A DNA stretch of 64,000 nt from Nitrospinota bacterium (GCA_029881495.1 JAOUMJ010000004.1:28476-92475), one strand, 5' to 3'; counted from the first letter of the stretch, positions 28,610 to 59,811 are shown. The notes: generated by a model from the letters alone, not told the origin. Numbers and translations: made by a program.

Positions 28610-28815
28610 AAGGATAACACGCGATTTTCAGAATGTCTTTTTCGCGATGCATTTTAAATATGAGGGAAGGGTCATCCATGTTTTTTCCCGGTTTTTGGAA
28701 CATCGCCTCGCCAATCCCGGGGAGTTACCCAAACCTGCAATATGGTTTAAACTTGTTATACTTGTTTGCAACGGCTTATCCAGCCGGTATGGATCGAAAT
28801 AGGGAGCATTCGATT

Positions 28816-30957
28816 ATGGATGACAGGTTATTACGGAGATTGGCGGGCGTCAGGCCGGCATATATTGTTCTTGTGTCGGTGCTTGCCTCTGTCAGCCTCA
28901 CCCTGGTAATTGTCTCCATATGCAGTCTCTATTTTTACGGTCGCGTTACTTTCGAGTTTATCGCTACCGGGATCATCGCCTCTTTCTTTGTGGCTTTCTT
29001 GGTCGTCATGTTTCTGCAAAAAATTACGAATAGCATTATGGAAGTGAAGCTCCAGTCGGATTCCATGATCCAATCCCTGGAGAAAAATATCTCCAATATC
29101 ATCCAAAAGAGCAATGACGTCTTCTACAGGACCAACCTGAAGGGGGAGATAGTCTGGATATCTCAATCGGTTCAAAAGGTGATGGGATATTCTCCGGAAG
29201 AGTTGATCGGGAAGGATATTTCCAGTTTTTACGTAAATCCGGAAGAGCGATTGAGGCTCCAGGAGTTGCTGAGGGAGAATGGCGGATTCGTAAAGAATTT
29301 TGAGGCAAAACTCCGGAAGAAGGATGGGAGCGAGATATGGCTCTCAACGGACACCGGTTATTATTACGACGAACACGGGAGCATCGCCGGAGTTGAAGGG
29401 GAGACCAAGGATGTAACCGAAAAGAAGGAGATCGAAAACGCCCTGAGGCTCTCCGAGGAAAAGTACAGAACGCTTATCGAAAATATACAGGAGGGGATAT
29501 TCCTCCTTCAGGAAGGGAAGTTCGTCTACGTAAATGACAGGTTTGCCGAAATGACCGGCTACAAGGTAGCCGAGATAATTGGAAAGGAGTTTGCCCCTTT
29601 CGTGGCCCCGGAAGACAGGAACAAGGTTTTCGAGCGGTACAAAAGGAGGTTGCAGGGGGAAGACGTTCCAAAGGAGTACGAGTTCCGGCTCCTGCATAAG
29701 GATGGCAATGCGCGGGTGGTTGTGCATATGCTGGTGAGTCTCACCCAGTATCAGGGAAAACTGGCAACCACCGGTACGATCACCAATGTATCCGAAAAGC
29801 GGAAGATGGAAACTCTCTATCAAAAAGCCCAAAAACTCGAATCTGTGGGATTGCTGGCTGGCGGCATTGCCCATGATTTCAACAACCTCCTCACCTCGAT
29901 ACTGGGCGGTCTCTCACTGCTGAAGCTTACTATCGACAAGAGCGGAGATGACGAGGATTTGCAGATAGTCACGGAATCTATAAACGCCACTAAGCGCGCG
30001 AAAGACCTCGCAAGACAGCTCCTTTCATTTTCGAAGGGGTCGGAGCCTGTAAAGAAGCTGTTAAGCCTCAAAGATCTCCTGATGGACTGCGTGTCGTTTT
30101 CTCTTCGGGGTTCGTTATCGAATTATTCGTTCGATATTGTCGACGACCTCTGGAACGTGGAGGCCGATGAAGGACAGCTTAACCAGGTATTCAATAATTT
30201 GATAATCAACGCGGAACAGTCAATGCCGGACGGCGGCGTGATAGATGTCTGCGCCTACAATATAAACATATCGTCGCACAGCGGGATACCTCTTCCACCA
30301 GGGAAGTATGTTCAGATTACGGTTGAGGATGCCGGCCACGGAATACCGGATGAATATCTCGACAAGATATTCGATCCCTACTTCACCAGTAAACAGAAGG
30401 GGAGCGGGCTCGGCCTTGCGTCAGCATATTCGATAATCAGGAACCACGGCGGATTTATCGATGTTGAATCCGATCTCGGAAAGGGGAGCAGGTTCCATGT
30501 ATTCGTTCCGGCCAGCGATTTGGCGATAAATGAATACGCCTCTTCTCCAGCGCTTGTGAAAGGCCATGGGAGGGTTCTTGTTATGGATGATGAGGATGTC
30601 GTAAGGAATGTTCTCGGCAGGATGTTAAAGAGGCTGGGGTACGAGACGGAGTATGCCGTCGACGGCGAAGAGGCCGTCAGCATTTACAGGCAAAACCTCG
30701 AAAACGGCACCCGGTTTAAGGCGATAATTACCGATCTCACGATACCCGGCGGGATGGGGGGAGAAAAGGTCTTGAAAATCCTCAAGGAGGCCGACCCTGA
30801 GATCAAGGCGATAGCAACAAGCGGCTACGCGCTTGATCCCATAATGTCGGATTATCCCAAATACGGATTTGCCGGAATTCTTCAAAAACCTTTTGAAATG
30901 GAAAACCTAAGCGTGGTACTGGAAAAGGTGACGGCGGAGAACGGCGGGAAATCATAA
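28816..30957 (+). CDS. hybrid sensor histidine kinase (membrane N-terminus, two PAS, HisKA, HATPase_c, receiver)
   Basis: H-box GIAHDFNNLLTSILGG; N/G boxes (NNLIINAEQSM, DAGHGIPDEYLDKIF, GSGLGLASAYS); C-terminal REC (VLVMDDE ... ITDLTIPGGMGG). ATG 28816 chosen by RBS; ORF track start is 28633. Confidence 0.85.
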   Translation: MDDRLLRRLAGVRPAYIVLVSVLASVSLTLVIVSICSLYFYGRVTFEFIATGIIASFFVAFLVVMFLQKITNSIMEVKLQSDSMIQSLEKNISNIIQKSNDVFYRTNLKGEIVWISQSVQKVMGYSPEELIGKDISSFYVNPEERLRLQELLRENGGFVKNFEAKLRKKDGSEIWLSTDTGYYYDEHGSIAGVEGETKDVTEKKEIENALRLSEEKYRTLIENIQEGIFLLQEGKFVYVNDRFAEMTGYKVAEIIGKEFAPFVAPEDRNKVFERYKRRLQGEDVPKEYEFRLLHKDGNARVVVHMLVSLTQYQGKLATTGTITNVSEKRKMETLYQKAQKLESVGLLAGGIAHDFNNLLTSILGGLSLLKLTIDKSGDDEDLQIVTESINATKRAKDLARQLLSFSKGSEPVKKLLSLKDLLMDCVSFSLRGSLSNYSFDIVDDLWNVEADEGQLNQVFNNLIINAEQSMPDGGVIDVCAYNINISSHSGIPLPPGKYVQITVEDAGHGIPDEYLDKIFDPYFTSKQKGSGLGLASAYSIIRNHGGFIDVESDLGKGSRFHVFVPASDLAINEYASSPALVKGHGRVLVMDDEDVVRNVLGRMLKRLGYETEYAVDGEEAVSIYRQNLENGTRFKAIITDLTIPGGMGGEKVLKILKEADPEIKAIATSGYALDPIMSDYPKYGFAGILQKPFEMENLSVVLEKVTAENGGKS

Positions 30958-32879: not shown

Positions 32880-33464
32880 TCAGCTTGAAAGCGTTTTGAG
32901 CGACTGCCTGATTATCTCCGATATGGAGAGTTCCTTTTCAGGCGCCGATACCGCCATTACCGCTTTTTCCGCCTGCGCCCTTTTGTAGCCGAGGTTCACG
33001 AGCGCTTCTACAGAATCCCGTATATCGGCGCTTCCCGACAGCGCGGTTCCGGCGCCGGTCGGCGGTGCCATTTTATCCTTCAGCTCGATTATGATCCTTT
33101 CGGCGGTCTTCTTGCCGAGGCCGTGAACGCGGGAGAGTTTCGCCACGTCGTTATTCGCGATTGCCGATTCGAGGTTGCTTGAGCTGATGCCGGAGAGTGT
33201 CTGTATAGCGAGCTTCGGACCGACGCGCGAGACGGTTATCAGTTTGTTGAAAACATCCTTCTCATCGGTATCGAAAAATCCGTAGAGGTGCAAAGCGTCT
33301 TCCCTGGCTATCGTGACAACATGAAGCCTTGCGTTCTCCCCCCTTTGCGGAAGTTTTTCATAGGTGTTGAGCGATATGAAAAGCCGGTACCCGACCCCAC
33401 CTACATCGAGGATGACCTGCGTCGGTTTTTTCTCCGCCACAATTCCGGTAAGCAGGGCGATCAT
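32880..33464 (-). CDS. ruvA: Holliday junction DNA helicase subunit RuvA
   Basis: MIALLTGIVAEKKPTQVILDVGGVGY N-terminus matches RuvA; start overlaps ruvC stop (ATGA). ORF track start is 33509. Confidence 0.85.
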   Translation of the reverse strand: MIALLTGIVAEKKPTQVILDVGGVGYRLFISLNTYEKLPQRGENARLHVVTIAREDALHLYGFFDTDEKDVFNKLITVSRVGPKLAIQTLSGISSSNLESAIANNDVAKLSRVHGLGKKTAERIIIELKDKMAPPTGAGTALSGSADIRDSVEALVNLGYKRAQAEKAVMAVSAPEKELSISEIIRQSLKTLSS

Positions 33465-33955
33465 TTGAGCGCAAGCCTCTTCAACGCGGGCGCCGAATGT
33501 ATATGGCATATCGCGACGCCGAGCGCATCGGCGGCATCGGCAGGCTTTGGAGCCTCTTTGAGCGAAAGGAGACGGCGCACCATCCCGGCGACCTGATGCT
33601 TCTCCGCCTTCCCGTGTCCCGTAAGCGCCTTTTTCACCTGAAGCGCGCTGTATTCATATACGGCGATGCCGCGGTTTACGGCGGGGAGCATCGCGGCTGA
33701 GCGCGCCTGACCAAGAAGCAGTGCCGATCTCGGATTCTCGGCGGTGAATATGTTTTCTATCGCCGCTTCGTCCGGAGAATATTTTTCGATTATTTCGCTG
33801 AAGCTCCTGTATATTTCACCCAGCTTTTCTGGGAGATTTTTGGACGGGTCTGTCTTTACCGCGCCGAAAGCGACGAGGGAAAGCCTGTTCCCTTTTTCCT
33901 CAACGAGCCCCCACCCCGCTATTCTGCTTCCCGGATCTATGCCAAGGGTAAGGAT
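33461..33955 (-). CDS. ruvC: crossover junction endodeoxyribonuclease RuvC; no canonical start codon in frame (see findings)
   Basis: Continuous frame encodes (I)LTLGIDPGSRIAGWG...GQARSAAMLPAVNRGIAVYEY...; ORF track only reports the C-terminal 76 aa from an internal ATG at 33691. The 5' boundary 33955 is an ATC codon. Confidence 0.7.
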   Translation of the reverse strand: MLTLGIDPGSRIAGWGLVEEKGNRLSLVAFGAVKTDPSKNLPEKLGEIYRSFSEIIEKYSPDEAAIENIFTAENPRSALLLGQARSAAMLPAVNRGIAVYEYSALQVKKALTGHGKAEKHQVAGMVRRLLSLKEAPKPADAADALGVAICHIHSAPALKRLALK

Positions 33956-33960
33956 GTCCG

Positions 33961-34710
33961 TTACTCCGAAAGCTTCTTCATGATTTCGTCGGAGATGTCG
34001 AAATTTGCGTAGACCTTTTGAACGTCGTCGTGGTCCTCGATGCTATCCATCAGTTTGAGCATTGCCGCCGCTTTGCTCTCGTCGAGGCTTACGGTATTTT
34101 GAGGGATCATTGTCAGCTCGCATTCTGTCGGTTCCAAGCCTTTTTTCTGAATGGCTTCCCTTACCGCTTCGAAATTCGAGGGTTCGGTCCTTATCTCGTA
34201 AACATCATCTTCGGTCTTGATGTCCTCCGCCCCTGCTTCGAGAGCCAACTCTATCAGCTCATCTTCAGATATCTGGTCGACCGGAATTTCGATGTACCCC
34301 TTGTTGTCGAATAGATAGCTCACACTGCCGGTAGTCCCCATGCTCCCTCCGCTTTTGCCGAGAAGGAGCCGTATTTCCGGGAGTGTTCTGTTCTTGTTGT
34401 CTGTCGCGCACTGAATGAGGATGGCCACTCCCCCCGGCCCGTATCCTTCATAAGCGACCTCTTCTATCATCTGTCCGGGGAGTTCTCCCGTCCCTTTCTT
34501 GATGGCTCTGGTAATGTTATCGGCCGGCATGTTCACCGATTTCGCGGCGTACACGGCTGTTCTTAGCCTCGGGTTGGCATCTATATCTCCTCCTCCCGAC
34601 TTTGCGGCAAGAGTTATCTCCTTGATATATTTTCCAAAAATCTTCCCCTTTTTCTGGTCGGCGGCCCCCTTTTTCCGTTTTATCGTCGACCATTTTGAAT
34701 GACCTGACAT
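33961..34710 (-). CDS. yebC: YebC/PmpR family DNA-binding regulator
   Basis: [26 protein letters not shown]-terminus is the YebC signature; 249 aa. Confidence 0.9.
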
Positions 34711-34837
34711 CGTAATGCTCCCAAAAAGTAAGGTTGTATCTGTAATTTGCTGTTGAGAATGTTATCACAGCTGAAATGCGCCGCATAGCGGACAACTTTT
34801 TCCTCTGAGTTGATCTGATTTCTGCGGGGAGGCAGGC

Positions 34838-35098
34838 TCATCCTTTCCGGATTTTTTCGATATCCTCCTCCCCCTTCGCCTCTATCTTGCGGATGTCTGC
34901 TGAGTATCTTTCGGTGATGTCGTCACGTTCCGCCGGATTGGAGGTTTTTGACAACGCCTCCCGAAACATTATCTCCTCCTGGGCGAGCCTCGCGGCGGTT
35001 TTGGAGCGCACTTCGGCTATCCCCTTTCTTTGTTCGTCGGTCAGTTTGCGGTTCTCTCCACCGGATCTTTCCATGGCGAGTTCTATGGCGCTTTTCAT
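34838..35098 (-). CDS. hypothetical small charged coiled-coil protein
   Basis: ORF on minus strand divergent from ruvB; highly charged (K/E/R-rich), no family recognised. Confidence 0.3.
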
Positions 35099-35194
35099 TA
35101 CTCCCTCCGATTCAGAAACATTCTTTTCCAGATGATACATTATTTCGCGCCGCTTATCTGGTCAAGTACGCGCGCGCAAGGTTATAATCCGGTC

Positions 35195-36211
35195 ATGTCC
35201 GAATTGATCGAACCGCAGGGAGAATCGCCGGCAGATGTCGTCATTGATGAAAGCCTCAGGCCGAAATCGATCGACGATTACGTCGGGCAACAGAGGATAA
35301 AGGAAAACCTCAAGATATCGATAGCCGCCACGCGCAAACGTGGCGAAGCGCTCGACCACATCCTTTTTTACGGACCTCCCGGCCTCGGAAAGACCACTCT
35401 CGCCTACATAATGGCAAACGAGCTTGAAGTGAACATAAGGGCCACCTCCGGCCCTGCCATAGAAAAAGCGGGAGACCTCGCCGCAATACTTACCAATATC
35501 GAAGAGAACGAGATAGTCTTTATCGACGAGATACACAGGCTTGCCCCGCCGGTGGAGGAGATACTCTATCCCGCCATGGAGGACGGGAATATAGATCTCG
35601 TTATCGGGCAGGGCCCGTCGGCAAGGTCGGTAAAGCTGGAAATCCCGCCATTCACGCTGGTAGGAGCCACAACGCGAGCCGGGCTTTTAACCTCCCCTTT
35701 AAGGGACAGGTTCGGCATTGTTCACCGTCTCGAATTCTATACCGAGGGGGAGCTTGCGCAGATAGTCAAGCGTTCAGCCGGAATCTTAGGCGCTCCTCTC
35801 GACGATGAAGGGGCAAGGGAGATCGCGCGCCGCTCGCGGGGAACCCCCCGCATCGCCAACCGGCTCCTTAGGCGCGTCCGTGATTACGCGGAGGTAAAGG
35901 GTGACGGCAGGGTAACCATGGAGATAGCGGGTCTCGCGCTCCGCATGATAGATATCGACGAAATGGGATTCGACAGAATGGATAGAATGCTTCTCCTTGC
36001 GATAATAGAAAAGTTCGGTGGAGGTCCGGTAGGGCTGGATACGCTTGCCGCCGCCATCAACGAGGAGAAGGATACGATAGAGGATGTCCTGGAGCCGTAT
36101 CTCATCCAGGAGGGATTTCTCCAGAGGACACCTCGCGGAAGGGTCGCCTGTGAAGCGGCATATCGTCACCTGAAAAAAAATCCCCCTTCACGACAAAAAG
36201 AGATCTTTTAG
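35195..36211 (+). CDS. ruvB: Holliday junction DNA helicase RuvB
   Basis: Walker [12 protein letters not shown], Walker [11 protein letters not shown], sensor and C-terminal winged helix; ATG at 35195 (MSELIEPQ). Confidence 0.92.
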
Positions 36212-36446: not shown

Positions 36447-38444
36447 ATGAGTTCGTATTTTAAGAGTTCTGAATCTTGTGTCAGGTTTTTGATGCGTGTA
36501 AATATTTTGATTTTATCTCTGTTCATTAGTGCTGTCTTTAATCCATCGCCTGCGTATGCGGAAGTGCAGGTGGTTGCGTCGAACGATCTCTTCGATATGG
36601 ACATAGTCGACCTCATGGAACTTGCTGTCACCACCGCGTCGAGAAAATCCGAGAAGCTTGTGCATACCTCCTCGGCAGTATATGTAATTACATCCGAGGC
36701 TATCAGGAACAGCGGAGCGACGACCATACCCGAAGCGCTGAGACTTGCGCCCGGGCTTCAGGTAGCGAGAATGGGATCGCACAGCTGGGCGATAACGTCG
36801 CGCGGTTTCAACAATGCATACGCAAACAAGCTCCTCGTATTGATAGACGGGCGGAGCGTATACACACCTCTCTTTGCGGGGGTCTACTGGGATGAGCAGG
36901 ATACCCTGATGGAGGATATCGACAGGATAGAGGTGGTCCGAGGTCCCGGCGGCACCATGTGGGGGGCGAACGCCGTGAACGGGGTGATAAACATCATCAC
37001 GAAAAAGGCAAACGAAACGGAGGGGACACTCACCTATATCGGAGGGGGCGATTTTGAAAAGAAATTTGCCGGTTTAAGGTATGGCGGGAAGCTGGGTGAA
37101 AACAGCTCGTACCGCATGTTCACGAAATATGACGACAGAGGCTCACTGGTAAAAAATGGTACTGATGAAAACATAAACGACGATTGGGATACCGGGAGAT
37201 TCGGATTCAGGATAGATTCAGAACCTTCCAGTACGAACACGTTCATGTTGCAGGGTGACATCTTCAAAAAGAGGAATGATTACACCTCAGACTCGCAGAC
37301 ACTGAAGTACGGCGGGGATATCGTCGGAAATTGGAGCCATACCATCTCGGAGAAATCAAAGACCGATTTGCAGTTTTATTACGACAGGACCGAAATGTTC
37401 GACGAGGATTCCTCGAGGATAATCGAAACGCTGGATCTTGATTTTCAGCACCACCTCTCTGCGGGTGACAGGCATGATTTGAGCTGGGGAGCCGGGATGA
37501 GAAACATCAGGTTTGATAATGAAAATACCTCCCCCCCCATTTTCTACGATCCGGCGAAGCGGGAGGACAGCCTGACAAACGTTTTTTTGCAGGACAAGAT
37601 AGCCGTTTCCCCCGGCCTGTTTTACTGGACTGTCGGGGCAAAGGTTGAGAACAATCCCTACACGGGGGTTGAGTACCAGCCGAATACCAGGTTCCTTTAC
37701 ACACCGGGTGAGAAGAACGTCTTTTGGGGTGCGGTATCAAGGGCTACCAAAACCCCCACGCGCGCCGACATGGACATGGGGATGTATAACTCAAAAGGGG
37801 GGCTTTTCCTAGTTCCGAAGAAGGATATGGCGTCGGAAATTCTCGTCGCCTACGAGCTTGGCCACCGCGCGATGCCGTCGGAAAAACTTTCATTTGATAC
37901 CACCATCTTCTACAACGACTACGACAAACTTGAAACTACCGAATGCGGATTTGCCGGCGGTTCCATGCAGTGCTACCAGGACAACCAGATGTACGGAACC
38001 ACCCACGGATTTGAAGCGGCCGCGAATTGGAGCCCGGTCCATGACTGGGTGCTCACCGCTACCTACACGTTCCTTGAGATGGATATGAAACTTCTCGATG
38101 GTTCCGAATCGATATACGCCACCGACGAGATGGAGTGGGAAAACCCCAAACAGCAGGCAAGGCTCAACTCCTATATCAAGCTCCCCTATAACATGCAGTT
38201 TGATTTGGCGGTATTTCATTCCGCCCCCGTAAGTTTCCAGCTATACACCGGCGAATACAAGCTGGCAGGCTACACGCGCGTAGATACCAGGCTGTCATGG
38301 AACGCGGGGAACGGATTTGTCACCTCGCTTTTTGTACAGGACGTGCTTAACGAATCAGGGCGCGGGGAATATAAAGGGGCAAGTTACGATCCATCTACTG
38401 ACGTGGAAAGAAATGTATATCTGAAAGTTTCGTTTGAAAAGTAA
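36447..38444 (+). CDS. TonB-dependent outer membrane receptor
   Basis: Signal peptide; plug domain motifs (VYVITSEAIRNSGATTIPEALRLAPGL, NKLLVLIDGRSVYTP, IEVVRGPGGTMWGANAVNGVINIITKK); ~600-aa barrel. RBS ggggagag before ATG. Confidence 0.85.
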   Translation: MSSYFKSSESCVRFLMRVNILILSLFISAVFNPSPAYAEVQVVASNDLFDMDIVDLMELAVTTASRKSEKLVHTSSAVYVITSEAIRNSGATTIPEALRLAPGLQVARMGSHSWAITSRGFNNAYANKLLVLIDGRSVYTPLFAGVYWDEQDTLMEDIDRIEVVRGPGGTMWGANAVNGVINIITKKANETEGTLTYIGGGDFEKKFAGLRYGGKLGENSSYRMFTKYDDRGSLVKNGTDENINDDWDTGRFGFRIDSEPSSTNTFMLQGDIFKKRNDYTSDSQTLKYGGDIVGNWSHTISEKSKTDLQFYYDRTEMFDEDSSRIIETLDLDFQHHLSAGDRHDLSWGAGMRNIRFDNENTSPPIFYDPAKREDSLTNVFLQDKIAVSPGLFYWTVGAKVENNPYTGVEYQPNTRFLYTPGEKNVFWGAVSRATKTPTRADMDMGMYNSKGGLFLVPKKDMASEILVAYELGHRAMPSEKLSFDTTIFYNDYDKLETTECGFAGGSMQCYQDNQMYGTTHGFEAAANWSPVHDWVLTATYTFLEMDMKLLDGSESIYATDEMEWENPKQQARLNSYIKLPYNMQFDLAVFHSAPVSFQLYTGEYKLAGYTRVDTRLSWNAGNGFVTSLFVQDVLNESGRGEYKGASYDPSTDVERNVYLKVSFEK

Positions 38445-38468
38445 ACCGGGCAGGGGAGCATCGGAATT

Positions 38469-39023
38469 TTGAAAAGAAAGAACGGAGAGATACATGTCAT
38501 CGCGGCGGTAATCTCCCTACTTCTCTGCTCATCCGCCTTTTCAAGTGAGAAGGTATTCACCGAGTACCAGGTAAAATCCGTTTTCATATACAACTTCGCG
38601 AAGTTCGTCGACTGGCCCGAACAGGCATTCAGTAGCGAGGCCTCCCCTGTAAACGTATGCGTGCTTGGCGAAGACCCTTTCGGCAACGAGATGGACCTCC
38701 TCACAAAAAAATCGGCCAGGGGGAGAGGATTCGACGTTCTCAGGTTCAGCAAGTTCAAGGATAAGGAGGAGCTGAAATCGTGCCACCTCCTCTTTATCAG
38801 TAAATCGGAAGAAAGCCGTATCGGCTCGATAATCGAGTCCCTTTCGGGATTCGGTGTCTTAACCATATCCGATGTGGAAGGTTTCATGGATTCCGGGGGG
38901 ATCATTGAGTTCACGATGAGGGAGAACAAGGTTCGCTTCGCCGTAAATCTGAAGGCCTCCGAACAGGCAGGGATAAGAATAAGCGCGAAGCTTCTGAAAC
39001 TTGCCGAGGCGGTGAAAAAATAG
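38469..39023 (+). CDS. YfiR-like DUF4154 periplasmic protein (putative)
   Basis: Signal peptide; conserved N-terminal EYQVKSVFIYNFAKFVDWPE-type segment; TTG start with GGGGAG RBS; stop 3 nt before kinase start. Confidence 0.55.
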   Translation: MKRKNGEIHVIAAVISLLLCSSAFSSEKVFTEYQVKSVFIYNFAKFVDWPEQAFSSEASPVNVCVLGEDPFGNEMDLLTKKSARGRGFDVLRFSKFKDKEELKSCHLLFISKSEESRIGSIIESLSGFGVLTISDVEGFMDSGGIIEFTMRENKVRFAVNLKASEQAGIRISAKLLKLAEAVKK

Positions 39024-39025
39024 CC

Positions 39026-41296
39026 ATGCCGAAAACCAGGGACTTCACGATAAAGCAGAAGCTGGGGCTCATCATCGGGGTGACCACTGTTGTGGCGCTC
39101 CTTCTCGCTTCGGTGTCGTTCATCCTCTACCAGAGATACATGCTAAGGCAGACCATAGTGCAGGATCTCTCTTCGCTAGCGGAGATCACGGGAAACAACA
39201 ACGCCGCTTCACTCGCGTTCATGGACACCGGTTCGGCAAGGGATACGCTCGGTGGCCTGAGCGCCAGGCCGTCTATCGAAGGGGCCGCTATATACTCCGC
39301 TGACGGCGAGCTGTTCGTGAAATATATAAAGATGAACGCGGATTTTGACGTTCCTGAATACCCAGGCGAGGACGGGCAGAGCTTTTCAGGCGGGAGGCTT
39401 ATCCTTGCAAGGGGGATAATATTCGACGGTGAGAGGATAGGTACCTTTTTCCTGGCGGCAAACATGGACGAGCTGAACGCACTGACAATAAAAAGTTCGA
39501 TGACAGTTCTGCTGGTAATGTTTATTTCGTTGATAGCCTCAATGATCGTCTCTTCAAGGCTTCAGGGGCTTATTTCAAATCCGGTAGCGGCCCTTTCAAG
39601 CCTCGCCATATCGGTTTCTGAGAGCAAGGATTATTCCGTCCGCGCAAAAAGCGACAGCCGCGACGAATTCGGCGACCTCATGAACGCGTTTAACGAGATG
39701 CTTGAACAGATCCAGTCAAGGGATCAAAAGCTGAGGGAACATGGCAAAGAACTGGAAAAGGAAGTTGAGGAGCGTACAAGAGAGTTGAACATCGCCAATA
39801 CGAATCTAAACGAAGAACTATTGGACCGCAGAAAGGCGGAACAGGCGCTTGCCCGCACGCTAAGCGAACTGGAAACGATAATGAACGCAAATCCCGACAT
39901 CCTTTACGTCGTAAACATGGAAGGGAAACTGATCAAATGGAACAACGGACTGGCAATGCTCACTGGGCTGGGGCCGGACAAGCTGATGCTACGGCCGATA
40001 ACCGAATTCATTCATGAAGATGACCGGGATATCGTCATGAGGAGGGTAAAGGATGTATTCCAAAATGGGGAGGCAACGGTCGAAGCGAGATTCTTCGACA
40101 GGAACGGCGACCTTTTCCCTTACTACTGCAACGGAATTGTTCTCAGGAACGAAAAGGGGGAAGTGACCGGCTTTACCGGAACGGGGCGCGACATCTCCAT
40201 ACTGAAGGAGACAGAGCTAGAACTGCGAAGGGCAAAGGATAGCGCCGAGGAGGCCACAAGGCTAAAGGACAAGTTCGTATCGCTAGTTTCCCACGACCTC
40301 AAAGGGCCTCTTGGAAGTCTTTTGGGATTTCTGGAGCTTATCAAAAGGGACTCTGCGAATGGCATCTCTGCGGAATCGGGAAAGTACCTAAGCATCGCCC
40401 TAGATTCCGGCGAGAAAATGCTCACATTGATAGATGATCTCCTCAACATCAGCAGGCTCAAGACCGGAAACATCATGCCGCACTACACATTCAACGATCT
40501 TCACATTATCATGTTGAAGATTCTTTCCGGCCTCGCCTATCCCGCGTCCCTGAAGGGTGTGACAATACAGAACGACGTAAGACCCGGCATCCGCGTATAT
40601 GCCGATAAACAGCTTCTGCAGGAGGTTTTGCAAAACCTTATTTCAAATGCGGTGAAGTTCTGCAATCAAGGGGACACTATCAGGATATTCCTTCCGTCAG
40701 GAAACGGGGGGCAAATTTCCGTTGCCGACACCGGGCAGGGGATCGCCCCCGAAAGGATAGGTAAACTCTTTAATTACGAAGAGAAGACCTCCACTATAGG
40801 CACCGCAGGTGAGACCGGAACGGGGCTGGGGCTCCCGCTTTCAATGGACATCATAAAGGCGCACAAGGGGAACATAGCCATAAGTTCCGAAGTTGGCATA
40901 GGGAGCACTTTCACCGTTTCGCTCCCGATAGTGAAGCCTGTCATTCTCCTTGTGGAAGACGACATAAACCTGATGGAACTCGTAAAGTTCATGCTTGAAG
41001 GGCTGGATGTGTTTATTATGGAAGCGAGGGACGGACAGGAAGCACTCGATATTCTCAGCGAGAAAACCCCTCATCTCATTCTCTCCGACATAATGATGCC
41101 GCGAGTGGATGGTATGGAACTGCTCGAAAAGGTGAGAAATACCGAACTCCTTAAAGATATCCCTTTTATAGTAATGACAACTTCCAGGGAGCCTGAAGTA
41201 TCGGAGAGAGCTTTTCAGCTTGGAGCGGACGACTTCCTGGTAAAACCGGTCACGCAAAACGAAATGATCCCGCGTATCAAGAGATTTATTTTATAG
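39026..41296 (+). CDS. hybrid sensor histidine kinase (periplasmic sensor, HAMP, PAS, HisKA, HATPase_c, receiver)
   Basis: Two TM helices flanking a ~130-aa periplasmic domain; H-box SLVSHDLKGPL; G boxes DTGQGIAPE, GTGLGLPLSMDI; REC ILLVEDD ... ILSDIMMPRVDG. Confidence 0.85.
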   Translation: MPKTRDFTIKQKLGLIIGVTTVVALLLASVSFILYQRYMLRQTIVQDLSSLAEITGNNNAASLAFMDTGSARDTLGGLSARPSIEGAAIYSADGELFVKYIKMNADFDVPEYPGEDGQSFSGGRLILARGIIFDGERIGTFFLAANMDELNALTIKSSMTVLLVMFISLIASMIVSSRLQGLISNPVAALSSLAISVSESKDYSVRAKSDSRDEFGDLMNAFNEMLEQIQSRDQKLREHGKELEKEVEERTRELNIANTNLNEELLDRRKAEQALARTLSELETIMNANPDILYVVNMEGKLIKWNNGLAMLTGLGPDKLMLRPITEFIHEDDRDIVMRRVKDVFQNGEATVEARFFDRNGDLFPYYCNGIVLRNEKGEVTGFTGTGRDISILKETELELRRAKDSAEEATRLKDKFVSLVSHDLKGPLGSLLGFLELIKRDSANGISAESGKYLSIALDSGEKMLTLIDDLLNISRLKTGNIMPHYTFNDLHIIMLKILSGLAYPASLKGVTIQNDVRPGIRVYADKQLLQEVLQNLISNAVKFCNQGDTIRIFLPSGNGGQISVADTGQGIAPERIGKLFNYEEKTSTIGTAGETGTGLGLPLSMDIIKAHKGNIAISSEVGIGSTFTVSLPIVKPVILLVEDDINLMELVKFMLEGLDVFIMEARDGQEALDILSEKTPHLILSDIMMPRVDGMELLEKVRNTELLKDIPFIVMTTSREPEVSERAFQLGADDFLVKPVTQNEMIPRIKRFIL

Positions 41297-41714: not shown

Positions 41715-44700
41715 ATGACCTCAAAGCCGCAATCAGGGATAGCAAAGCTGATTTTTTCCCCTTGGGGAGCCGTATTGGTATGGAGTGTCTTTATCGCCAT
41801 CTCCCTTCTGTGGAACATCAGCCACCATAGGAAAGACACCCTGGAAATGGCGGTCAAGGAAGCAACCATCCACTTCAACAAGGATCAGGCTTTCAGGTAC
41901 TGGGTTACTTCGCATGGCGGCGTTTACGTCCCTGTGGATGAAAGAACACCTCCAAATCCTCTTCTTTCGCATGTGCCGGAAAGGGATATCGAAACCAAAT
42001 CGGGAAAAAAACTTACCCTGATGAATCCCGCTTACGCCTTGCGCCAGTTGATGAACGATTACAGCGACAAATACGGGATAAAAGGGCGCATTACGAGTCT
42101 GAAACTCCTTAACCCGGCAAACGCTCCCGACGAGTGGGAAAAGAAAGCGCTAAAGTCCTTCGAGAATGGCGCGGCTGAAGCGGTTGAATTCACCAAGATC
42201 GACGGCGTTCCGTTTCTGAGGTTCATGCGTCCGATGATCACCGAAGAGGGATGTCTTAAATGTCACGCGCATCAAGGGTACAAGGTCGGCGATGTGAGGG
42301 GTGGGGTCGGGGTAATCCTTCCGGTACAGCCGTATATGGAAATAGAGAAAAGCGAAGTTGCATCAATAGCCATCTCGCACAACCTGTTCTGGATAATCGG
42401 GCTTTTTGCCATCGGGTTCGTATCGAGGCTGAATAAAAAGAGGATACAGGAAAAGAGCGAGGCCGAACAGGCAGTTTTCCTTTTCAGGACCCTTCTTGAC
42501 CGCTCCAGCGACGCCATCACCGTTGTTGATCCCGACAACGGAAGGTTCCTCGATTTCAATGAAAAGTTCTGCGCTAATCTCGGTTACGGACGCCATGAGA
42601 TCATGGGGAAGAGCATTATTGATATCGATTCAACCATCAAGGATATCTACGAGTGGAACAAGCGAATTGAAGAGCTGGAGAAACATGAAGAGCTTGTTTT
42701 TGAGAGTGTGCATGTCCGGAAGGATGGCTACAAATTTCCGGTAGAGGTCAGCGTAAAGCTTGTTCGGGAAAAAGGGAAGAGGTTTATCATTGGAGTCACC
42801 AGGGATATTACGGAGAGAAAGCGCGCGGAAGAGGCGCTCTTGCGGAGCGAGGAAAAATACAGGCTGTTGGTGGAGAGCGGTCTCCTGATCGCGTGGGAAG
42901 CGAAGTTCCCTTCGCGGCAGTTCACCTTTGTAAGCTCGCATGCCGGAAAGCTCACAGGCTACAGCGAAAAGGAGTGGTGCAAGCAGGATTTCTGGGTGAA
43001 CCATCTTTATACCGAAGACAGGGAGAAGGCAATAAAACAGAGCGGGGAGCTTGTCAAAAAAGGTGAGGGTCACACACTCGAATATCGGATGATCGCGAAG
43101 GACGGCAAGGTTATCTGGTTCAAGGATATGGTGAGCGTCATAAAGGATTCGGCCTCGGCGCCTGTCGGCCTGCGCGGGTTCCTTACCGATATAACAGAAA
43201 GAAAAAACATGGAAGATCTTGCCAAGAGCAGGGGGGAATCCCTCGCCAGAGCGCAGGAGATAGCGCACATAGGGAGCTGGAGCTGGGATGTTCAAACAGG
43301 CCATCTCTACTGGTCCGACGAAAATTTCAGGCTCTTCGGATTCTCTCCCCAGGAATTCGAGCCTACGTATGAAAAGTTCCTTGAAATTTTACATCCATCC
43401 GATAGAGAGAGCGTGATCCAGGCCGTCAATCTCACGCTGGAGGGGGGCGGGAATTACGATATTGAACATAGGATCGTCCGTCCCGACGGCACGGTAAGGC
43501 TGATACATGGGCAGGGGAGGGTTGAATACGGGAGGGACGGAACGCCTGCAAGGATGTATGGCACGGGACACGATATCACCGATCAGCGGAAATCCGAGGA
43601 GACCATGCGTCTGCAGAGCGAGATGATGGCGAACATGGGGGAGGGGGTTCTGCTGATAAAGGCCGACAACATGAAAATAGTTCACGCGAATTCCAGACTT
43701 GAGAAGATGTTCGGCTATGGTGAGGGGGAGCTTTTGGACAAAGAGGTCGCCATACTTAACGCGCCCACGGAACGCGATCCGAAGGAGACCGCGAGGGGAA
43801 TAGTCACTCTGCTGCAGGAAAAAGGTTTCTGGCAGGGGGAGGTTCACAATATCAAAAAGGACGGTTCCACGTTCTGGTGTTTTGCGTCAATCGCGGGGTT
43901 CGACCACCAGGAGTACGGGAAGGTCTGGATATCGGTGCATGCCGACATAACCGAAAACAAACGCGCAGAGGAAGAAAAACTTCTTTTCAGGAGGCTTGTC
44001 AACAGATCTAACGACATGATCCTTCTGGTCGACCCGGAGAGCGCGCTCATTCTCGATATAAACGACAAGGGGTGCGAGCACCTCGGATATGACCGTGAAG
44101 AGTTGATGAAGATGCGGGTAATAGATTTCGACGCAACCGTAAGTGAAGTTGAAGCGTGGCAGGCACACACTGCGGAGCTGGAAGCTAAGGATTCACTCCT
44201 CTTTGAAAGCGTTCATATAAGAAAAGACGGCGCCCGGATACCGGTAGAGATAAACGTAAAGCTGGTTTCGGAGAGCGGCAGAAGCTTTATAATCGGCGTG
44301 GTTCGGGATATATCCGACAGAAAGCGCGCCGAAGAAGAGCTGAGAAACAGCCAGAAGATACTCGCCCGCGCCCAGAAGATAGCAAATATTGGAAACTGGA
44401 CATGGGATGTGCCGGATCAGAAGTTCAGCTGGTCGGATGAGCTCTATCACATACTCGGTTTAAGCGAGAAGAAGGGGAAGGCGGATTACCTGGCGATACT
44501 GGAGACGACCCACCCGGAGGAGAGGGAAGGATTGAAGCGGGCAATTTTCGATGCGCTCGAAGAGAAAAAGCCATGGAACCTTGATCACAGAATAGTTCTT
44601 GAGGATGGGAATATTCGCGTAGTGCATCACCAGGGGGAGGTCACCTTGAACAGCGATGAGGAGGTCCTCCTCATCGAAGGGACGTTGCAGGATATTACCG

Positions 44701-46184
44701 AACGGAAGGAGGCCGAGCGCGCCCTGGAAAAGTCGGAGAGAAATATCAGGGCGATAGTCAAATCGGTCGGAGAAGGGATAGTCGTTGCCAATCGTGATTC
44801 GCGGGTGACATTCGTGAACGGAGAGCTCTGCGAAATTTTCGGCTGTTCCGAAGAGGAGATTATCGGACAGCCGCTCGAAATACTTATGCCGGAGCGTTTC
44901 AGGGAATCTCACAGGACGTCATTCAAGAGATATCTGGAAGGTGGGAAAGCGAGGGTCGTAGGGAAGAGGATCGAACTGGAAGGCCTTCGAAAGGATGGCT
45001 CGGAGTTCCCGCTTGAACTGAGGATCGAGGAGTCGGTATGGGATCACCAGGAGAAATTCTTCGTAGGCGCGATAAGGGATATTACTGAAAGCAGGCGAAT
45101 CTTCGAGGAGCTCCGAAAGGCGAAGGAAGAGGCTGAAGGGGCCACAAAACTGAAGGACAAGTTTGTGTCGATGGTCTCGCACGACCTCAAGGGGCCGCTT
45201 GGGAACATGATGGGATACCTGAAACTGCTGTTGAACGAGCAGGCCGAGCCGCTGGGGGAAGGGGCAAATGTCATCCTCGGGTCCGCGCTGAAATGCGGCG
45301 AGGGGATGATAAGCCTGATAGAAGAACTCCTGAATATCTCCCGGCTTAAGACCGGTAAGCTGGTTCCGCAGATGAGATTCCACGATCTGTATGTTGTCTC
45401 ATTGAGAGCGCTTTCGGGTCTCAGCTATCTCGCCCTCCAGAAAGGGATCGAAATTGTTAACGAAATAAAGCCCGGTGCGAGGGTCTTCGGAGACGAGCAG
45501 CTCCTTTCGGAGGTTGTCGCTAACGTCCTTTCTAACTCGATAAAATTCAGCGGGCGCGACAGCAGGATAACGATATCCCACTCCGCAGGAGAGAAGACAC
45601 TCCTTGCCATCAAGGATAACGGAGTGGGAATTCCGCCCGAAAAAATTGAATTCCTGTTTGATTATGAGGTGAAGACATCGACCGTCGGAACCGCCGGGGA
45701 GACCGGCACCGGCCTCGGTCTCCCGCTGGCAATGGATATCGTCAAGGCGCATGGGGGGGATATATCGGTGGATTCAAAGCCGGATGCCGGGAGCAGCTTC
45801 ACTATTGCGCTTCCGGTCGTGACGCCGAGGATCCTCGTGGCGGATGACGATGAAGGTGTACTCCATATCATCAGAACGATCCTTGCGGATGAGTCGGTGG
45901 AGATAATCGAAGCGCTCGACGGCAAGGAGGCGATGGAGCTCATCAGGGAGAAGGCTCCGCACTTTATAATCGCCGATTTCCACATGCCTGAGATCGACGG
46001 CCTAAAGCTCCTCGAAAGGGTGAAAAAAGAGAAGTCGATCAAGAACGCGGTATTCTTTATCATGACAAGCGACAAGGATACAGAGATAAAGGAGAGGGCG
46101 TTCCAGCTTGGGGCGGATGATTTTCTAAACAAACCGATATTGAAGGGGGACCTCCTCCCCAGGGTGAGGAGATATATAATTTAG
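41715..46184 (+). CDS. giant multi-PAS hybrid sensor histidine kinase with N-terminal CxxCH heme-type periplasmic domain
   Basis: 1489 aa; periplasmic N-domain with CLKCH motif (near 42252-42266); TM helix; at least five PAS/PAC modules; H-box SMVSHDLKGPL; HATPase_c; C-terminal REC. Confidence 0.85.
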   Translation: MTSKPQSGIAKLIFSPWGAVLVWSVFIAISLLWNISHHRKDTLEMAVKEATIHFNKDQAFRYWVTSHGGVYVPVDERTPPNPLLSHVPERDIETKSGKKLTLMNPAYALRQLMNDYSDKYGIKGRITSLKLLNPANAPDEWEKKALKSFENGAAEAVEFTKIDGVPFLRFMRPMITEEGCLKCHAHQGYKVGDVRGGVGVILPVQPYMEIEKSEVASIAISHNLFWIIGLFAIGFVSRLNKKRIQEKSEAEQAVFLFRTLLDRSSDAITVVDPDNGRFLDFNEKFCANLGYGRHEIMGKSIIDIDSTIKDIYEWNKRIEELEKHEELVFESVHVRKDGYKFPVEVSVKLVREKGKRFIIGVTRDITERKRAEEALLRSEEKYRLLVESGLLIAWEAKFPSRQFTFVSSHAGKLTGYSEKEWCKQDFWVNHLYTEDREKAIKQSGELVKKGEGHTLEYRMIAKDGKVIWFKDMVSVIKDSASAPVGLRGFLTDITERKNMEDLAKSRGESLARAQEIAHIGSWSWDVQTGHLYWSDENFRLFGFSPQEFEPTYEKFLEILHPSDRESVIQAVNLTLEGGGNYDIEHRIVRPDGTVRLIHGQGRVEYGRDGTPARMYGTGHDITDQRKSEETMRLQSEMMANMGEGVLLIKADNMKIVHANSRLEKMFGYGEGELLDKEVAILNAPTERDPKETARGIVTLLQEKGFWQGEVHNIKKDGSTFWCFASIAGFDHQEYGKVWISVHADITENKRAEEEKLLFRRLVNRSNDMILLVDPESALILDINDKGCEHLGYDREELMKMRVIDFDATVSEVEAWQAHTAELEAKDSLLFESVHIRKDGARIPVEINVKLVSESGRSFIIGVVRDISDRKRAEEELRNSQKILARAQKIANIGNWTWDVPDQKFSWSDELYHILGLSEKKGKADYLAILETTHPEEREGLKRAIFDALEEKKPWNLDHRIVLEDGNIRVVHHQGEVTLNSDEEVLLIEGTLQDITERKEAERALEKSERNIRAIVKSVGEGIVVANRDSRVTFVNGELCEIFGCSEEEIIGQPLEILMPERFRESHRTSFKRYLEGGKARVVGKRIELEGLRKDGSEFPLELRIEESVWDHQEKFFVGAIRDITESRRIFEELRKAKEEAEGATKLKDKFVSMVSHDLKGPLGNMMGYLKLLLNEQAEPLGEGANVILGSALKCGEGMISLIEELLNISRLKTGKLVPQMRFHDLYVVSLRALSGLSYLALQKGIEIVNEIKPGARVFGDEQLLSEVVANVLSNSIKFSGRDSRITISHSAGEKTLLAIKDNGVGIPPEKIEFLFDYEVKTSTVGTAGETGTGLGLPLAMDIVKAHGGDISVDSKPDAGSSFTIALPVVTPRILVADDDEGVLHIIRTILADESVEIIEALDGKEAMELIREKAPHFIIADFHMPEIDGLKLLERVKKEKSIKNAVFFIMTSDKDTEIKERAFQLGADDFLNKPILKGDLLPRVRRYII

Positions 46185-57614: not shown

Positions 57615-57768
57615 TTCTATACCTTTATAAGTTTTTTGGTTGCATTCCAAAACGTGGAATAAACAGCCGAGCCGCAAAGTTCAAATGCGGTAGGCGGATA
57701 TCAAAAAATTCGAACTAGAAAAGTCGTATGGTCCCCTAGTTGGAGTTCTAATAATGACTATACAGGAT

Positions 57769-58191: not shown

Positions 58192-58195
58192 ATTT

Positions 58196-59200: not shown

Positions 59201-59263
59201 ATTTTTTTGGCTCCCAATTCCACTTCCAGCTTTACCGGGGTTATCTTACCCCCAAGTTTGAAG

Positions 59264-59794: not shown

Positions 59795-59811
59795 CAGGCA
59801 ACCTCCTAAAC

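What the first reader, a model, noticed from the sequence alone, without database searches (positions are those of the whole stretch)
41715..46184. 1489-aa multi-PAS hybrid kinase with a periplasmic CxxCH heme-binding motif
The N-terminal extracytoplasmic domain contains CLKCH, the covalent attachment motif of c-type haem, followed by a TM helix, at least five PAS/PAC modules, a kinase core and a receiver. This predicts a periplasmic haem-based redox or gas sensor integrating several cytoplasmic inputs. The N-domain resembles the DUF3365-type haem-binding sensor fold, but that assignment is unverified.
Basis: partly seen in the sequence, partly recalled or inferred. Interest (0 to 1): 0.55.

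Follow-up and report, generated by a model that had tools for sequence, protein, structure and literature searches.

The report
Haem-c Cache sensor hybrid kinase
This gene encodes a large membrane-bound signalling kinase from a Nitrospinota bacterium whose outward-facing sensor belongs to a recently described haem-carrying "Cache" family thought to sense nitric oxide or redox state; it also seems to carry a second, FixL-like haem sensor inside the cell, so it is a well-supported but fairly ordinary member of a known kind.

Summary

Corrections and additions:
- There are seven PAS modules, not five; A/E and C/F are internal duplicates.
- The kinase and receiver have all catalytic residues (H1156, D1421), and there is no HPt domain.
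- In a syntenic orthologue only the haem-c sensor and PAS-G-kinase-receiver are conserved.

Verdict: new member of a known kind, annotated only as "PAS domain S-box protein". Haem binding and ligand identity are untested.

The parts
41715..46184 (+). Complete gene for the 1489-aa hybrid sensor histidine kinase (NCBI MDH5541859.1, 'PAS domain S-box protein', Nitrospinota MAG)
41748..41819 (+). TM1 (about aa 12-35), an uncleaved signal anchor
   Evidence: Hydropathy. The AF2 model has a continuous helix over aa 7-66.
41820..42359 (+). Periplasmic sCache_heme (PF11845, DUF3365/Tll0287-like) sensor domain, aa 36-215
42021..42023 (+). Met103 in the invariant TLMNP motif; candidate distal pocket residue or labile haem ligand (inferred)
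   Evidence: Met in 158 of 166 domains, Leu/Val/Ile in 8.
42252..42266 (+). CLKCH haem-c attachment motif (C180, C183; proximal ligand H184) on the short helix aa 178-187, just before the last beta-strand
   Evidence: H184 aligns with Tll0287 His145.
42360..42425 (+). TM2 (about aa 216-237), followed by a basic cytoplasmic stretch
42462..42830 (+). PAS-A (aa 250-372); 52% identical to PAS-E
42831..43211 (+). PAS-B (aa 373-499), PAS_3 type
43212..43592 (+). PAS-C (aa 500-626), PAS_3 type; 40% identical to PAS-F
43593..43964 (+). PAS-D (aa 627-750)
43965..44333 (+). PAS-E (aa 751-873), duplicate of PAS-A
44334..44708 (+). PAS-F (aa 874-998), duplicate of PAS-C
44709..45098 (+). PAS-G (aa 999-1128): FixL/DosP-like candidate haem-b PAS; proximal His1066 is at nt 44910-44912
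45153..45356 (+). HisKA/DHp domain (aa 1147-1214); phospho-acceptor His1156 in the H-box SHDLKGPL
45489..45818 (+). HATPase_c catalytic domain (aa 1259-1368) with N box (N1274), G1 (DNGVGI) and G2 (GTGLGL)
45831..46166 (+). C-terminal receiver domain (aa 1373-1484) with D1377-1379, D1421, T1451 and K1473

Best explanation
The gene encodes a membrane-bound hybrid sensor histidine kinase of a Nitrospinota bacterium.

Its periplasmic domain (aa 36-215, between TM1 and TM2) is an sCache_heme domain. This is a single Cache module carrying a short inserted helix whose CLKCH motif is predicted to bind one haem c covalently (thioethers to C180 and C183, H184 as proximal ligand) after Sec export and cytochrome c maturation. 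The domain belongs to the signalling class of the family: it is fused to an output and has no axial Cys.

The inferred mechanism runs as follows:
1. A change at the distal haem position is the signal. This is most likely NO binding or a redox-linked ligand switch, possibly involving Met103.
2. The change is passed through TM2 to the cytoplasmic PAS array.
3. The last PAS (PAS-G), next to the kinase, is a FixL-type PAS that probably binds haem b through His1066. It adds a cytoplasmic O2 or other diatomic-gas input that gates the DHp/CA core directly.
4. The kinase autophosphorylates on His1156 and transfers the phosphoryl group to Asp1421 of its own receiver.
5. Further relay would need a separate HPt protein and response regulator, which are not encoded nearby.

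Shown here: domain identities, topology, motif conservation, fold, catalytic residues, and synteny-conserved retention of both haem modules. Inferred: haem occupancy, the ligands sensed and the direction of regulation.
For: Periplasmic haem-c domain:
- PF11845 at 79 bits against a cut-off of 24.
- Two TM helices only, and a single CxxCH.
- CxxCH conserved in 40 of 40 and 166 of 166 relatives; no conserved third Cys.
- AF2 model with pLDDT 90.7 and pTM 0.81; the CxxCH sits on helix 178-187 before the last strand.
- A profile of the domain hits 5b82 with H184 aligned to His145.

Literature:
- The family is defined by its CXXCH. The signalling-fused member from P. azotoformans binds haem c when co-expressed with ccm genes, lacks the axial Cys, binds NO with koff 6e-4 s-1 and forms no stable O2 complex (10.64898/2026.02.01.703092).
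- GSU0582 and GSU0935 work by redox-linked Met on/off ligation, and NO or CO displaces the Met (PMC8396549).

PAS-G:
- Its 13 best PDB matches are all haem-b O2-sensor PAS domains: RmFixL E 7.4e-22, BjFixL about 1e-14, DosP about 5e-11.
- It is 38% identical to RmFixL.
- BjFixL H200, R206, Y207, M192, L236 and I238 are conserved as H1066, R1072, Y1073, M1058, L1102 and I1104.
- PAS-G scores 73 bits against the RmFixL haem domain; the other six PAS modules score 24.5 bits or less.

Kinase and receiver catalytic residues are all present.

Synteny: in the positional orthologue P0130 (same YebC-RuvB...MutL-Hda-Memo-GlgA flanks), only TM-sCache_heme-TM (58% identity) and PAS-G (57%), kinase (50%) and receiver (32%) are conserved. 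The PAS array between them is not.
Against: - No experiment shows haem in either domain of this protein.
- No cytochrome c maturation genes and no other c-type cytochrome genes lie in the 64-kb window.
- NO sensing rests on a single characterised family member with a different output (HAMP only); no sCache_heme histidine kinase has been characterised.
- Met103 is replaced by Leu, Val or Ile in 8 of 166 relatives, so it is not an obligatory ligand.
- The N-terminal half of the domain cannot be aligned to Tll0287 by sequence.
- In PAS-G the O2-binding Arg of FixL (BjFixL R220) aligns to Ile1086, with Arg1085 one position earlier, and Tyr203 is Ser. O2 selectivity is therefore uncertain.
- FixL-like PAS modules are no more frequent in sCache_heme kinases than in other multi-PAS kinases of the similarity-selected sample: 8 of 50, of which 4 are copies of this protein itself, against 7 of 76.
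Confidence: 0.72

Rival explanations
1. The periplasmic haem c reports periplasmic redox potential, for example the state of the cytochrome c pool, and not NO. Reduction and oxidation of the iron would drive on/off ligation of a distal residue such as Met103, as in the Geobacter MCP sensors GSU0582 and GSU0935.
For: - GSU0935 and GSU0582 are among the structural matches, and their proposed mechanism is redox-linked Met60 ligation (PMC8396549).
- Met103 lies in an invariant TLMNP motif (158 of 166).
- By register, Met103 falls where Tll0287 has its axial Cys68.
- Nitrospina respiration runs through periplasmic cytochromes c (PMC3578206).
Against: - Met103 is Leu, Val or Ile in 8 of 166 relatives.
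- The register argument is approximate, and the N-terminal half does not align to 5b82.
- The characterised signalling-class member behaves as an NO binder.
- The two readings are not exclusive, since NO displaces the Met in the Geobacter sensors.
Confidence: 0.35
2. Only the periplasmic haem c is a real cofactor site. PAS-G would be a FixL homologue that has lost haem binding or gas selectivity, acting merely as a dimerisation and transmission module like the other PAS domains.
For: - BjFixL R220 is not conserved in register (Ile1086), Tyr203 is Ser and His214 is Arg.
- The NCBIfam FixL equivalog model scores 308 bits against a cut-off of 850.
- FixL-like PAS modules are scattered through many multi-PAS kinases without enrichment among sCache_heme kinases.
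Against: - The proximal His and most pocket residues are conserved.
- E 7e-22 and 38% identity to the RmFixL haem domain.
- The His is retained in the FixL-like PAS of relatives P0130, P0173, P0182 and P0190.
- PAS-G is the only PAS conserved with the positional orthologue, at 57% identity.
Confidence: 0.3
3. The CxxCH is not used for haem. The N-domain would be an ordinary small-molecule-binding sCache domain, and the motif would be structural or metal-binding.
For: - No haem data exist for this protein.
- No ccm genes lie in the window.
- The nearest non-haem folds are ligand-binding sCache domains: WalK, TlpB, CitA and DcuS.
Against: - CxxCH is conserved in 166 of 166 domains, including the His, and in 99% of more than 5,000 family members.
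- Haem c is seen in the crystal structures of Tll0287, GSU0582 and GSU0935 and in two purified family members.
- The phylum relies on c-type cytochromes.
Confidence: 0.04
4. The periplasmic haem c is an O2 sensor.
For: - Haem sensors often bind O2.
- The organism belongs to a phylum with microaerophilic ancestry, found in oxygen-minimum zones.
Against: - None of the tested sCache_heme proteins forms a stable oxy complex; they autoxidise and release superoxide.
- The protein already has a FixL-type candidate O2 sensor in the cytoplasm.
Confidence: 0.06

Closest known systems
sCache_heme / Cache_heme family (Pfam PF11845, DUF3365/Tll0287-like), signalling class ('Cluster 2'), e.g. the P. azotoformans Cache_heme-HAMP receptor (Deshpande et al., bioRxiv 2026, 10.64898/2026.02.01.703092 and 10.64898/2026.05.25.727664)
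   Same: - TM1 - periplasmic Cache module with an inserted CXXCH helix - TM2.
- No axial Cys.
- Fused to cytoplasmic signalling modules.
- Histidine-kinase fusions are among the architectures listed for the family.
   Different: - The output here is seven PAS modules plus HisKA/HATPase and a receiver, instead of a lone HAMP that recruits a Ser/Thr kinase.
- There is no HAMP.
- NO binding has not been tested here.
- It carries an additional FixL-like PAS, which that work does not mention (the term FixL occurs 0 times in it).
Tll0287 of Thermosynechococcus elongatus (PDB 5B82)
   Different: Tll0287 is a soluble stand-alone protein with His/Cys axial ligation (Cys68) and a proposed redox role. 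This domain has no third Cys, is membrane-anchored on both sides and is fused to a kinase. Identity is 17-21%, and the N-terminal half cannot be aligned by sequence.
Geobacter sulfurreducens GSU0582 / GSU0935 periplasmic haem-c sensor domains (PDB 3B47, 3B42)
   Same: Periplasmic c-type haem on a PAS/Cache-like fold between two TM helices. They have a labile distal ligand (Met), bind NO and CO, and show a redox-linked spin and ligation switch. They appear among the Foldseek matches (E 2e-3 to 3e-3).
   Different: Their output is a methyl-accepting chemotaxis module, not a kinase. Their domains are shorter (about 130 aa), and sequence similarity is marginal (E 0.43, around the CxxCH only).
FixL (Rhizobium meliloti / Bradyrhizobium japonicum) and DosP haem-b PAS O2 sensors
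   Same: - PAS-F, PAS-G and the kinase core align over nearly the whole FixL model (positions 5-482 of 485).
- PAS-G is 38% identical to the RmFixL haem domain.
- The proximal His, R206, Y207, L236 and I238 equivalents are conserved.
- The PAS sits directly before the DHp domain.
   Different: - It is not a FixL equivalog (308 bits against a cut-off of 850).
- The R220 equivalent is shifted by one residue.
- No FixJ partner is nearby.
- The protein is embedded in a much larger transmembrane hybrid kinase with a periplasmic haem-c sensor.

Membership tests
sCache_heme (PF11845, DUF3365/Tll0287-like) | Matches the family HMM above the curated threshold | tested here: met
   PF11845 at aa 42-203, covering profile positions 4-144 of 144; 79.3 bits against a gathering score of 24.1.
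sCache_heme (PF11845, DUF3365/Tll0287-like) | Canonical CXXCH on a short helix inserted before the last beta-strand of the Cache module | tested here: met
   CLKCH at aa 180-184 lies on model helix 178-187, between strands 165-175 and 194-203. It is conserved in 166 of 166 relatives.
sCache_heme (PF11845, DUF3365/Tll0287-like) | Cache fold similar to Tll0287 and to ligand-binding sCache domains | tested here: met
sCache_heme (PF11845, DUF3365/Tll0287-like) | Extracytoplasmic location | tested here: met
   The domain lies between the only two hydrophobic helices, with a basic stretch after TM2 and cytoplasmic-type PAS and kinase domains downstream. This is a prediction only; no topology experiment exists.
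sCache_heme (PF11845, DUF3365/Tll0287-like) | Covalently bound haem c | not testable with these tools
   This needs expression with a Ccm system, haem staining and spectroscopy. No maturation genes are in the window.
sCache_heme signalling class (Cluster 2, NO-binding) | Fused to a signal-transduction output and lacking the axial Cys | tested here: met
   The only Cys residues in aa 1-250 are C180 and C183. The domain is fused to a PAS array, kinase and receiver.
sCache_heme signalling class (Cluster 2, NO-binding) | High-affinity NO binding and no stable O2 complex | not testable with these tools
   This is known for only one member, from P. azotoformans.
Tll0287-type stand-alone His/Cys haem protein (Cluster 1) | Axial Cys ligand and stand-alone soluble architecture | tested here: not met
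   There is no third Cys in the domain, and the domain has two TM helices and a 1250-aa cytoplasmic extension.
GSU0582/GSU0935-type haem-c chemoreceptor sensors | Distal Met ligand that binds in the reduced state | tested here: inconclusive
   Met103 is conserved in 158 of 166 relatives but is replaced by Leu, Val or Ile in 8. Its structural equivalence to Met60 could not be established.
GSU0582/GSU0935-type haem-c chemoreceptor sensors | MCP signalling output | tested here: not met
   There is no MCPsignal domain; the output is HisKA/HATPase_c plus a receiver.
FixL (NCBIfam NF041777 equivalog) | Score above the equivalog cut-off | tested here: not met
   308.2 bits against a cut-off of 850.
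FixL/DosP-type haem-b PAS domain | Homology to haem-PAS domains, with the proximal His on the F-alpha helix and conserved pocket residues | tested here: met
   RmFixL E 7.4e-22. H1066, R1072, Y1073, M1058, L1102 and I1104 match BjFixL H200, R206, Y207, M192, L236 and I238.
FixL/DosP-type haem-b PAS domain | FG-loop Arg (BjFixL R220) that contacts bound O2 | tested here: not met
   It aligns to Ile1086, and an Arg (R1085) sits one position earlier.
Hybrid histidine kinase | H-box His, N/G1/G2 boxes, and a receiver with an acidic pocket, phospho-Asp, Thr/Ser and Lys | tested here: met
   H1156, N1274, DNGVGI, GTGLGL, D1377-1379, D1421, T1451 and K1473; Pfam domains above threshold.
Hybrid histidine kinase | HPt domain for a phosphorelay (in cis or encoded nearby) | tested here: not met
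   PF01627 is absent from the protein and from every ORF of the window that was scanned.

The most novel reading that the evidence does not exclude
The protein is a two-haem coincidence detector. A periplasmic covalently bound haem c (NO or redox) and a cytoplasmic FixL-type haem b (O2) would control one kinase, and this pairing would be the conserved functional core of the locus in a Nitrospinota lineage. In the syntenic orthologue only these two sensor modules plus the kinase and receiver are retained, while the PAS array between them is replaced. Such a sensor would let a bacterium from a phylum with microaerophilic ancestry read NO or redox state outside the membrane and O2 inside it at the oxic-anoxic interface. 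The sCache_heme papers do not mention this combination.
Probability: 0.4. Interest if true: 0.5.

Novelty: new member of a known kind. Interest (0 to 1): 0.3.

Why it matters
The sCache_heme family was only defined in 2026, and no histidine-kinase member has been characterised. This protein is a clean, full-length example from Nitrospinota, the phylum of the major marine nitrite oxidisers. In that phylum NO (produced by NirK, with no known NO reductase in N. gracilis) and O2 are physiologically central signals.

If both predicted haems are real, it would be a natural test case for two questions. One is how a periplasmic haem-c signal and a cytoplasmic haem-b signal are combined in one kinase. 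The other is whether family members fused to kinases are NO sensors or redox sensors.

In practical terms, the public annotation ('PAS domain S-box protein') can be improved. Otherwise the architecture is one of thousands of similar modular sensor kinases and is not surprising to a specialist.

Tried and rejected
1. Single-sequence phmmer of the N-domain against PDB gave nothing significant. Only profiles reached 5b82.
2. A profile of the N-terminal half (aa 36-125) against PDB, meant to place Tll0287 Cys68 against Met103, gave no hit to 5b82. The Met103/Cys68 correspondence therefore rests on register alone.
3. The idea that Met103 is an obligatory axial ligand was weakened: it is Leu, Val or Ile in 8 of 166 relatives.
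4. The scan of genome contigs with the full protein found only distant PAS kinases (24-40% identity) and no orthologue among GTDB representatives. The organism was identified through an exact-sequence look-up instead.
5. A search for cytochrome c maturation genes found none in the window and nothing in the held supplement of the N. gracilis genome paper.
6. Enrichment of FixL-like PAS among sCache_heme kinases was not supported: 8 of 50, of which 4 are self copies, against 7 of 76 in a similarity-selected and therefore biased sample.
7. LOV/flavin reading of PAS-A (prompted by a weak YtvA-family hit): rejected, because the segment that would hold the LOV NCRFL cysteine motif (motif recalled from general knowledge) lacks it.
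8. The 418-bp upstream intergenic region has only one weak promoter-like site, at the chance level, and no terminator. There are no Rfam matches anywhere in the window. The transcription unit is therefore unresolved.
9. My first attempt at column mapping of the hmmalign output was off by one and was redone.

Full report
**Observation**

The ORF lies exactly where stated: 41715..46184 on the + strand, ATG start, 1489 aa. CLKCH occupies aa 180-184 and is the only CxxCH, and the only CxxC, in the protein. Hydropathy analysis with a 19-residue window finds just two hydrophobic segments in the whole protein, about aa 12-35 and 216-237. They bracket the CxxCH-containing domain, and the stretch after the second is strongly basic (RLNKKRIQEK). 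Everything after TM2 is of cytoplasmic type (PAS, kinase, receiver), so aa 36-215 are predicted to face the periplasm.

Pfam gives the following:
- PF11845 (Tll0287-like, the former DUF3365) at aa 42-203, 79.3 bits against a gathering score of 24.1.
- HisKA at 1147-1214.
- HATPase_c at 1259-1368.
- Response_reg at 1373-1484.

The PAS region consists of seven modules, not five. Their boundaries are marked by seven D-I-T/S-x-x-R/K motifs. Each module, scanned alone, passes the Pfam gathering scores, and TIGR00229 also reports seven stretches.

**The N-terminal domain**

Homologues of aa 1-254 are very numerous.
- The word-indexed search gave 809 hits, the best at 59-62% identity. They are fused to GGDEF, PAS, HisKA or HD-GYP outputs, and many are named 'DUF3365 domain-containing protein'.
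- An exhaustive phmmer scan of 1.84 billion cluster representatives found 5832 clusters at E<=1e-3 and 3605 at E<=1e-30.

Conservation:
- In an alignment of 40 sequences, C180, C183 and H184 are invariant, as are R61, W63, Y71, the motif T101-L-M-N-P105, E142 and R169.
- Across 166 domains, including the more divergent full-length kinases, CxxCH is conserved 166 of 166 times.

Structure:
- An AlphaFold2 model built on the alignment is confident (mean pLDDT 90.7, pTM 0.81).
- It shows a long N-terminal helix (TM1 plus stalk), an alpha/beta core, a short helix at 178-187 carrying the CxxCH just before the last beta-strand (194-203), and a long C-terminal helix (stalk plus TM2).
- Foldseek against the PDB ranks Tll0287 (5b82) first (E 2.8e-6). 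Next come a full-length WalK model, the haem-c sensor domains GSU0935 and GSU0582, and the sCache domains of CitA, DcuS and a formate chemoreceptor.
- A sequence profile of the domain hits 5b82 (E 8.6e-5), with H184 aligned to the proximal His145.

**What is known about this family**

A preprint of February 2026 (Deshpande, Xing, Gumerov, Crane, Zhulin; 10.64898/2026.02.01.703092) reports the following.
- It renames DUF3365/Tll0287 'sCache_heme'.
- The CXXCH is conserved in 99% of more than 5,000 members.
- The fold is reclassified from PAS to Cache, with an inserted cytochrome-derived helix.
- The family is enriched in Nitrospirota, Desulfobacterota and related phyla.
- The family splits into two classes. 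One is stand-alone proteins with His/Cys ligation and redox-like behaviour. The other is domains fused to signalling modules, including histidine kinases, that lack the axial Cys.
- The one characterised signalling-class member (P. azotoformans) incorporates haem c when co-expressed with ccm genes, binds NO tightly (koff 6e-4 s-1) and forms no stable O2 complex.

The older Geobacter work on GSU0582 and GSU0935 proposes a redox-linked on/off switch of a distal Met, which NO and CO can displace (PMC8396549).

The present domain has no Cys other than the CxxCH pair and is fused to a kinase, so it belongs to the signalling class.

**Distal ligand**

By register from the profile alignment, Tll0287 Cys68 would fall at about aa 103-106, inside the invariant TLMNPAY motif. 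That makes Met103 a candidate distal ligand or pocket residue. Two results weaken this reading. The N-terminal half does not align to 5b82 by sequence. Met103 is replaced by Leu, Val or Ile in 8 of 166 relatives. I therefore treat Met103 as a possible labile ligand and not as an established one.

**A second haem site**

PAS-G (aa 999-1128), which directly precedes the DHp domain, is a FixL/DosP-type PAS.
- Its 13 best PDB matches are all haem-b O2-sensor PAS domains: RmFixL E 7.4e-22, BjFixL about 1e-14, DosP about 5e-11.
- It is 38% identical to the RmFixL haem domain.
- BjFixL His200 (proximal ligand), Arg206, Tyr207, Met192, Leu236 and Ile238 correspond to His1066, Arg1072, Tyr1073, Met1058, Leu1102 and Ile1104. 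His214 is Arg and Ile215/216 are Val/Val.
- The O2-contacting Arg220 aligns to Ile1086, with Arg1085 one position earlier.
- Against the RmFixL haem domain PAS-G scores 73 bits, while the other six PAS modules score 24.5 bits or less.

PAS-F, PAS-G and the kinase core align to nearly the full length of the NCBIfam FixL model, but at 308 bits against a cut-off of 850. The protein is thus FixL-like in this part but is not FixL. Haem-b binding is likely (my estimate is about 0.65). O2 selectivity is uncertain.

**Kinase and receiver**

All catalytic residues are present:
- H-box SHDLKGPL (His1156).
- N box (Asn1274).
- G1 (DNGVGI) and G2 (GTGLGL).
- Receiver Asp1377-1379, Asp1421, Thr1451 and Lys1473.

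There is no HPt domain in the protein or in any scanned ORF of the window. Any phosphorelay partner is therefore encoded elsewhere.

**Origin and context**

The exact protein is NCBI MDH5541859.1, 'PAS domain S-box protein', from a Nitrospinota MAG. It also occurs in a Logan assembly of SRR7132271. No orthologue exists among the GTDB species representatives.

The surroundings are mostly housekeeping genes: aroK, aroC, maf, coaE, smpB, bioA/D, purF, pdxJ, an RND efflux set, tatC, pyrF, rpe, ruvA, yebC, ruvB, mutL, hda, memo, glgA, dcd, rho, and flagellar and motor genes. There are no cytochrome c maturation genes and no other CxxCH proteins in the window.

Cultured Nitrospina respire through periplasmic cytochromes c, encode NirK but no known NO reductase, and show signs of microaerophilic ancestry (PMC3578206). 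A maturation system and a physiological role for NO and O2 sensing are therefore plausible, but neither is shown for this MAG.

**Comparative evidence**

Among the 126 best full-length relatives, 50 carry PF11845, so sCache_heme plus multi-PAS plus kinase (with or without a receiver) is a common architecture. FixL-like PAS modules (60 bits or more) occur in 8 of these 50, of which 4 are copies of this protein itself, and in 7 of the 76 without PF11845. The pairing recurs (P0130, P0173, P0182, P0190) but is not enriched in this biased sample. The proximal His is retained in these modules.

P0130 is more telling.
- It is 1229 aa long, from JGI metagenome 3300037247.
- It sits in the same chromosomal position: YebC-RuvB upstream and MutL-Hda-Memo-GlgA downstream.
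- Between the two proteins the TM-sCache_heme-TM module (58% identity) and the PAS-G (57%), kinase (50%) and receiver (32%) modules are conserved.
- PAS-A to PAS-F have no counterpart.

Within the present protein, PAS-A/PAS-E (52%) and PAS-C/PAS-F (40%) are internal duplicates. The conserved core of this locus is thus the haem-c sensor, the FixL-like PAS, the kinase and the receiver. The intervening PAS array is evolutionarily fluid.

**Mechanism, most likely**

1. The N-domain is exported, and one haem c is attached at C180/C183 with His184 as the proximal ligand.
2. NO binding or a redox-linked change at the distal position alters the Cache module and its stalk helices.
3. The signal crosses the membrane through TM2 and passes along the PAS array.
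4. PAS-G adds a cytoplasmic haem-b input next to the DHp domain.
5. The kinase autophosphorylates at His1156 and transfers the phosphoryl group to Asp1421.

Steps 1 to 4 are inferred from family membership and from conserved residues. Step 5 follows from the intact catalytic motifs.

**Verdict**

It is a new, uncharacterised member of a known and abundant kind. Its main point of interest is the probable second haem sensor and the conservation of that pairing in the orthologous locus. Interest 0.3.

Noticed in passing
window 44709-45098 (aa 999-1128 of the target): The kinase-proximal PAS (PAS-G) is a FixL/DosP-type candidate haem-b PAS with the proximal His conserved (H1066).
   Followed up: yes
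window 42462-42830 vs 43965-44333, and 43212-43592 vs 44334-44708: The PAS array contains an internal duplication. PAS-A and PAS-E are 52% identical, and PAS-C and PAS-F are 40% identical; the other pairs are 34% or less, or give no significant alignment. The syntenic orthologue P0130 has no counterpart for PAS-A to PAS-F, so the middle of the protein is evolutionarily fluid.
   Followed up: partly
window 36447-41296 (+): Directly upstream lies a three-gene cluster: a TonB-dependent receptor (Plug domain), a YfiR/HmsC-like DUF4154 protein, and a CHASE8-HAMP-PAS-HisKA-HATPase-REC hybrid kinase. A 418-bp gap with no terminator-like site separates it from the target. In the orthologous locus L011 this slot holds nine tandem DUF7793 paralogues plus a PAS hybrid kinase instead, so there is a variable signalling island between ruvB and the haem kinase.
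   Followed up: partly
window 41715 vs 41775: Gene calls disagree on the start. NCBI uses the ATG at 41715 (1489 aa). JGI and ENA use the TTG at codon 21 (1469 aa), which would cut TM1 to about 15 residues and remove its N-terminal lysines. The homologue alignment supports the longer form.
   Followed up: partly
window 28633-30957 (+): A third hybrid kinase lies in the same 64 kb (two PAS modules, HisKA, HATPase_c and a receiver; the N-terminal 150 aa are unassigned). None of the three hybrid kinases has an HPt domain, and no HPt gene is in the window.
   Followed up: no
window 32880-36211: ruvA (- strand) and ruvB (+ strand) are split and divergently oriented, with yebC (- strand) between them, instead of forming the usual ruvAB operon. 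The same yebC(-)/ruvB(+) arrangement is seen in L011.
   Followed up: no
window 22294-23556 (+), 40-606 (+), 57754-58233 (+): These are sizeable ORFs with no Pfam match at E<=1e-3. The 420-aa one follows an MMPL/RND-like transporter and a LolA-like gene and may belong to that export cluster.
   Followed up: no
window 58196-62089 (-): A flagellar and motor cluster (fliM, fliL, a MotB-like gene with a plug, a second OmpA-domain MotB-like gene, and motA/exbB-like). The two tandem MotB/OmpA-type stator genes suggest a motile Nitrospinota bacterium.
   Followed up: no
window 1-64000: No Rfam family reaches its gathering score anywhere in the 64 kb, which means no tRNA, riboswitch or sRNA family match.
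   Followed up: yes
L012/L013 8001-11210 (P0173, Nitrospinota): A second Nitrospinota sCache_heme kinase has the FixL-like PAS immediately after TM2 (aa 252-376). Its neighbours include a PAS-sigma54 activator, a multicopper-oxidase-like gene, another PAS kinase and a P-II protein.
   Followed up: partly
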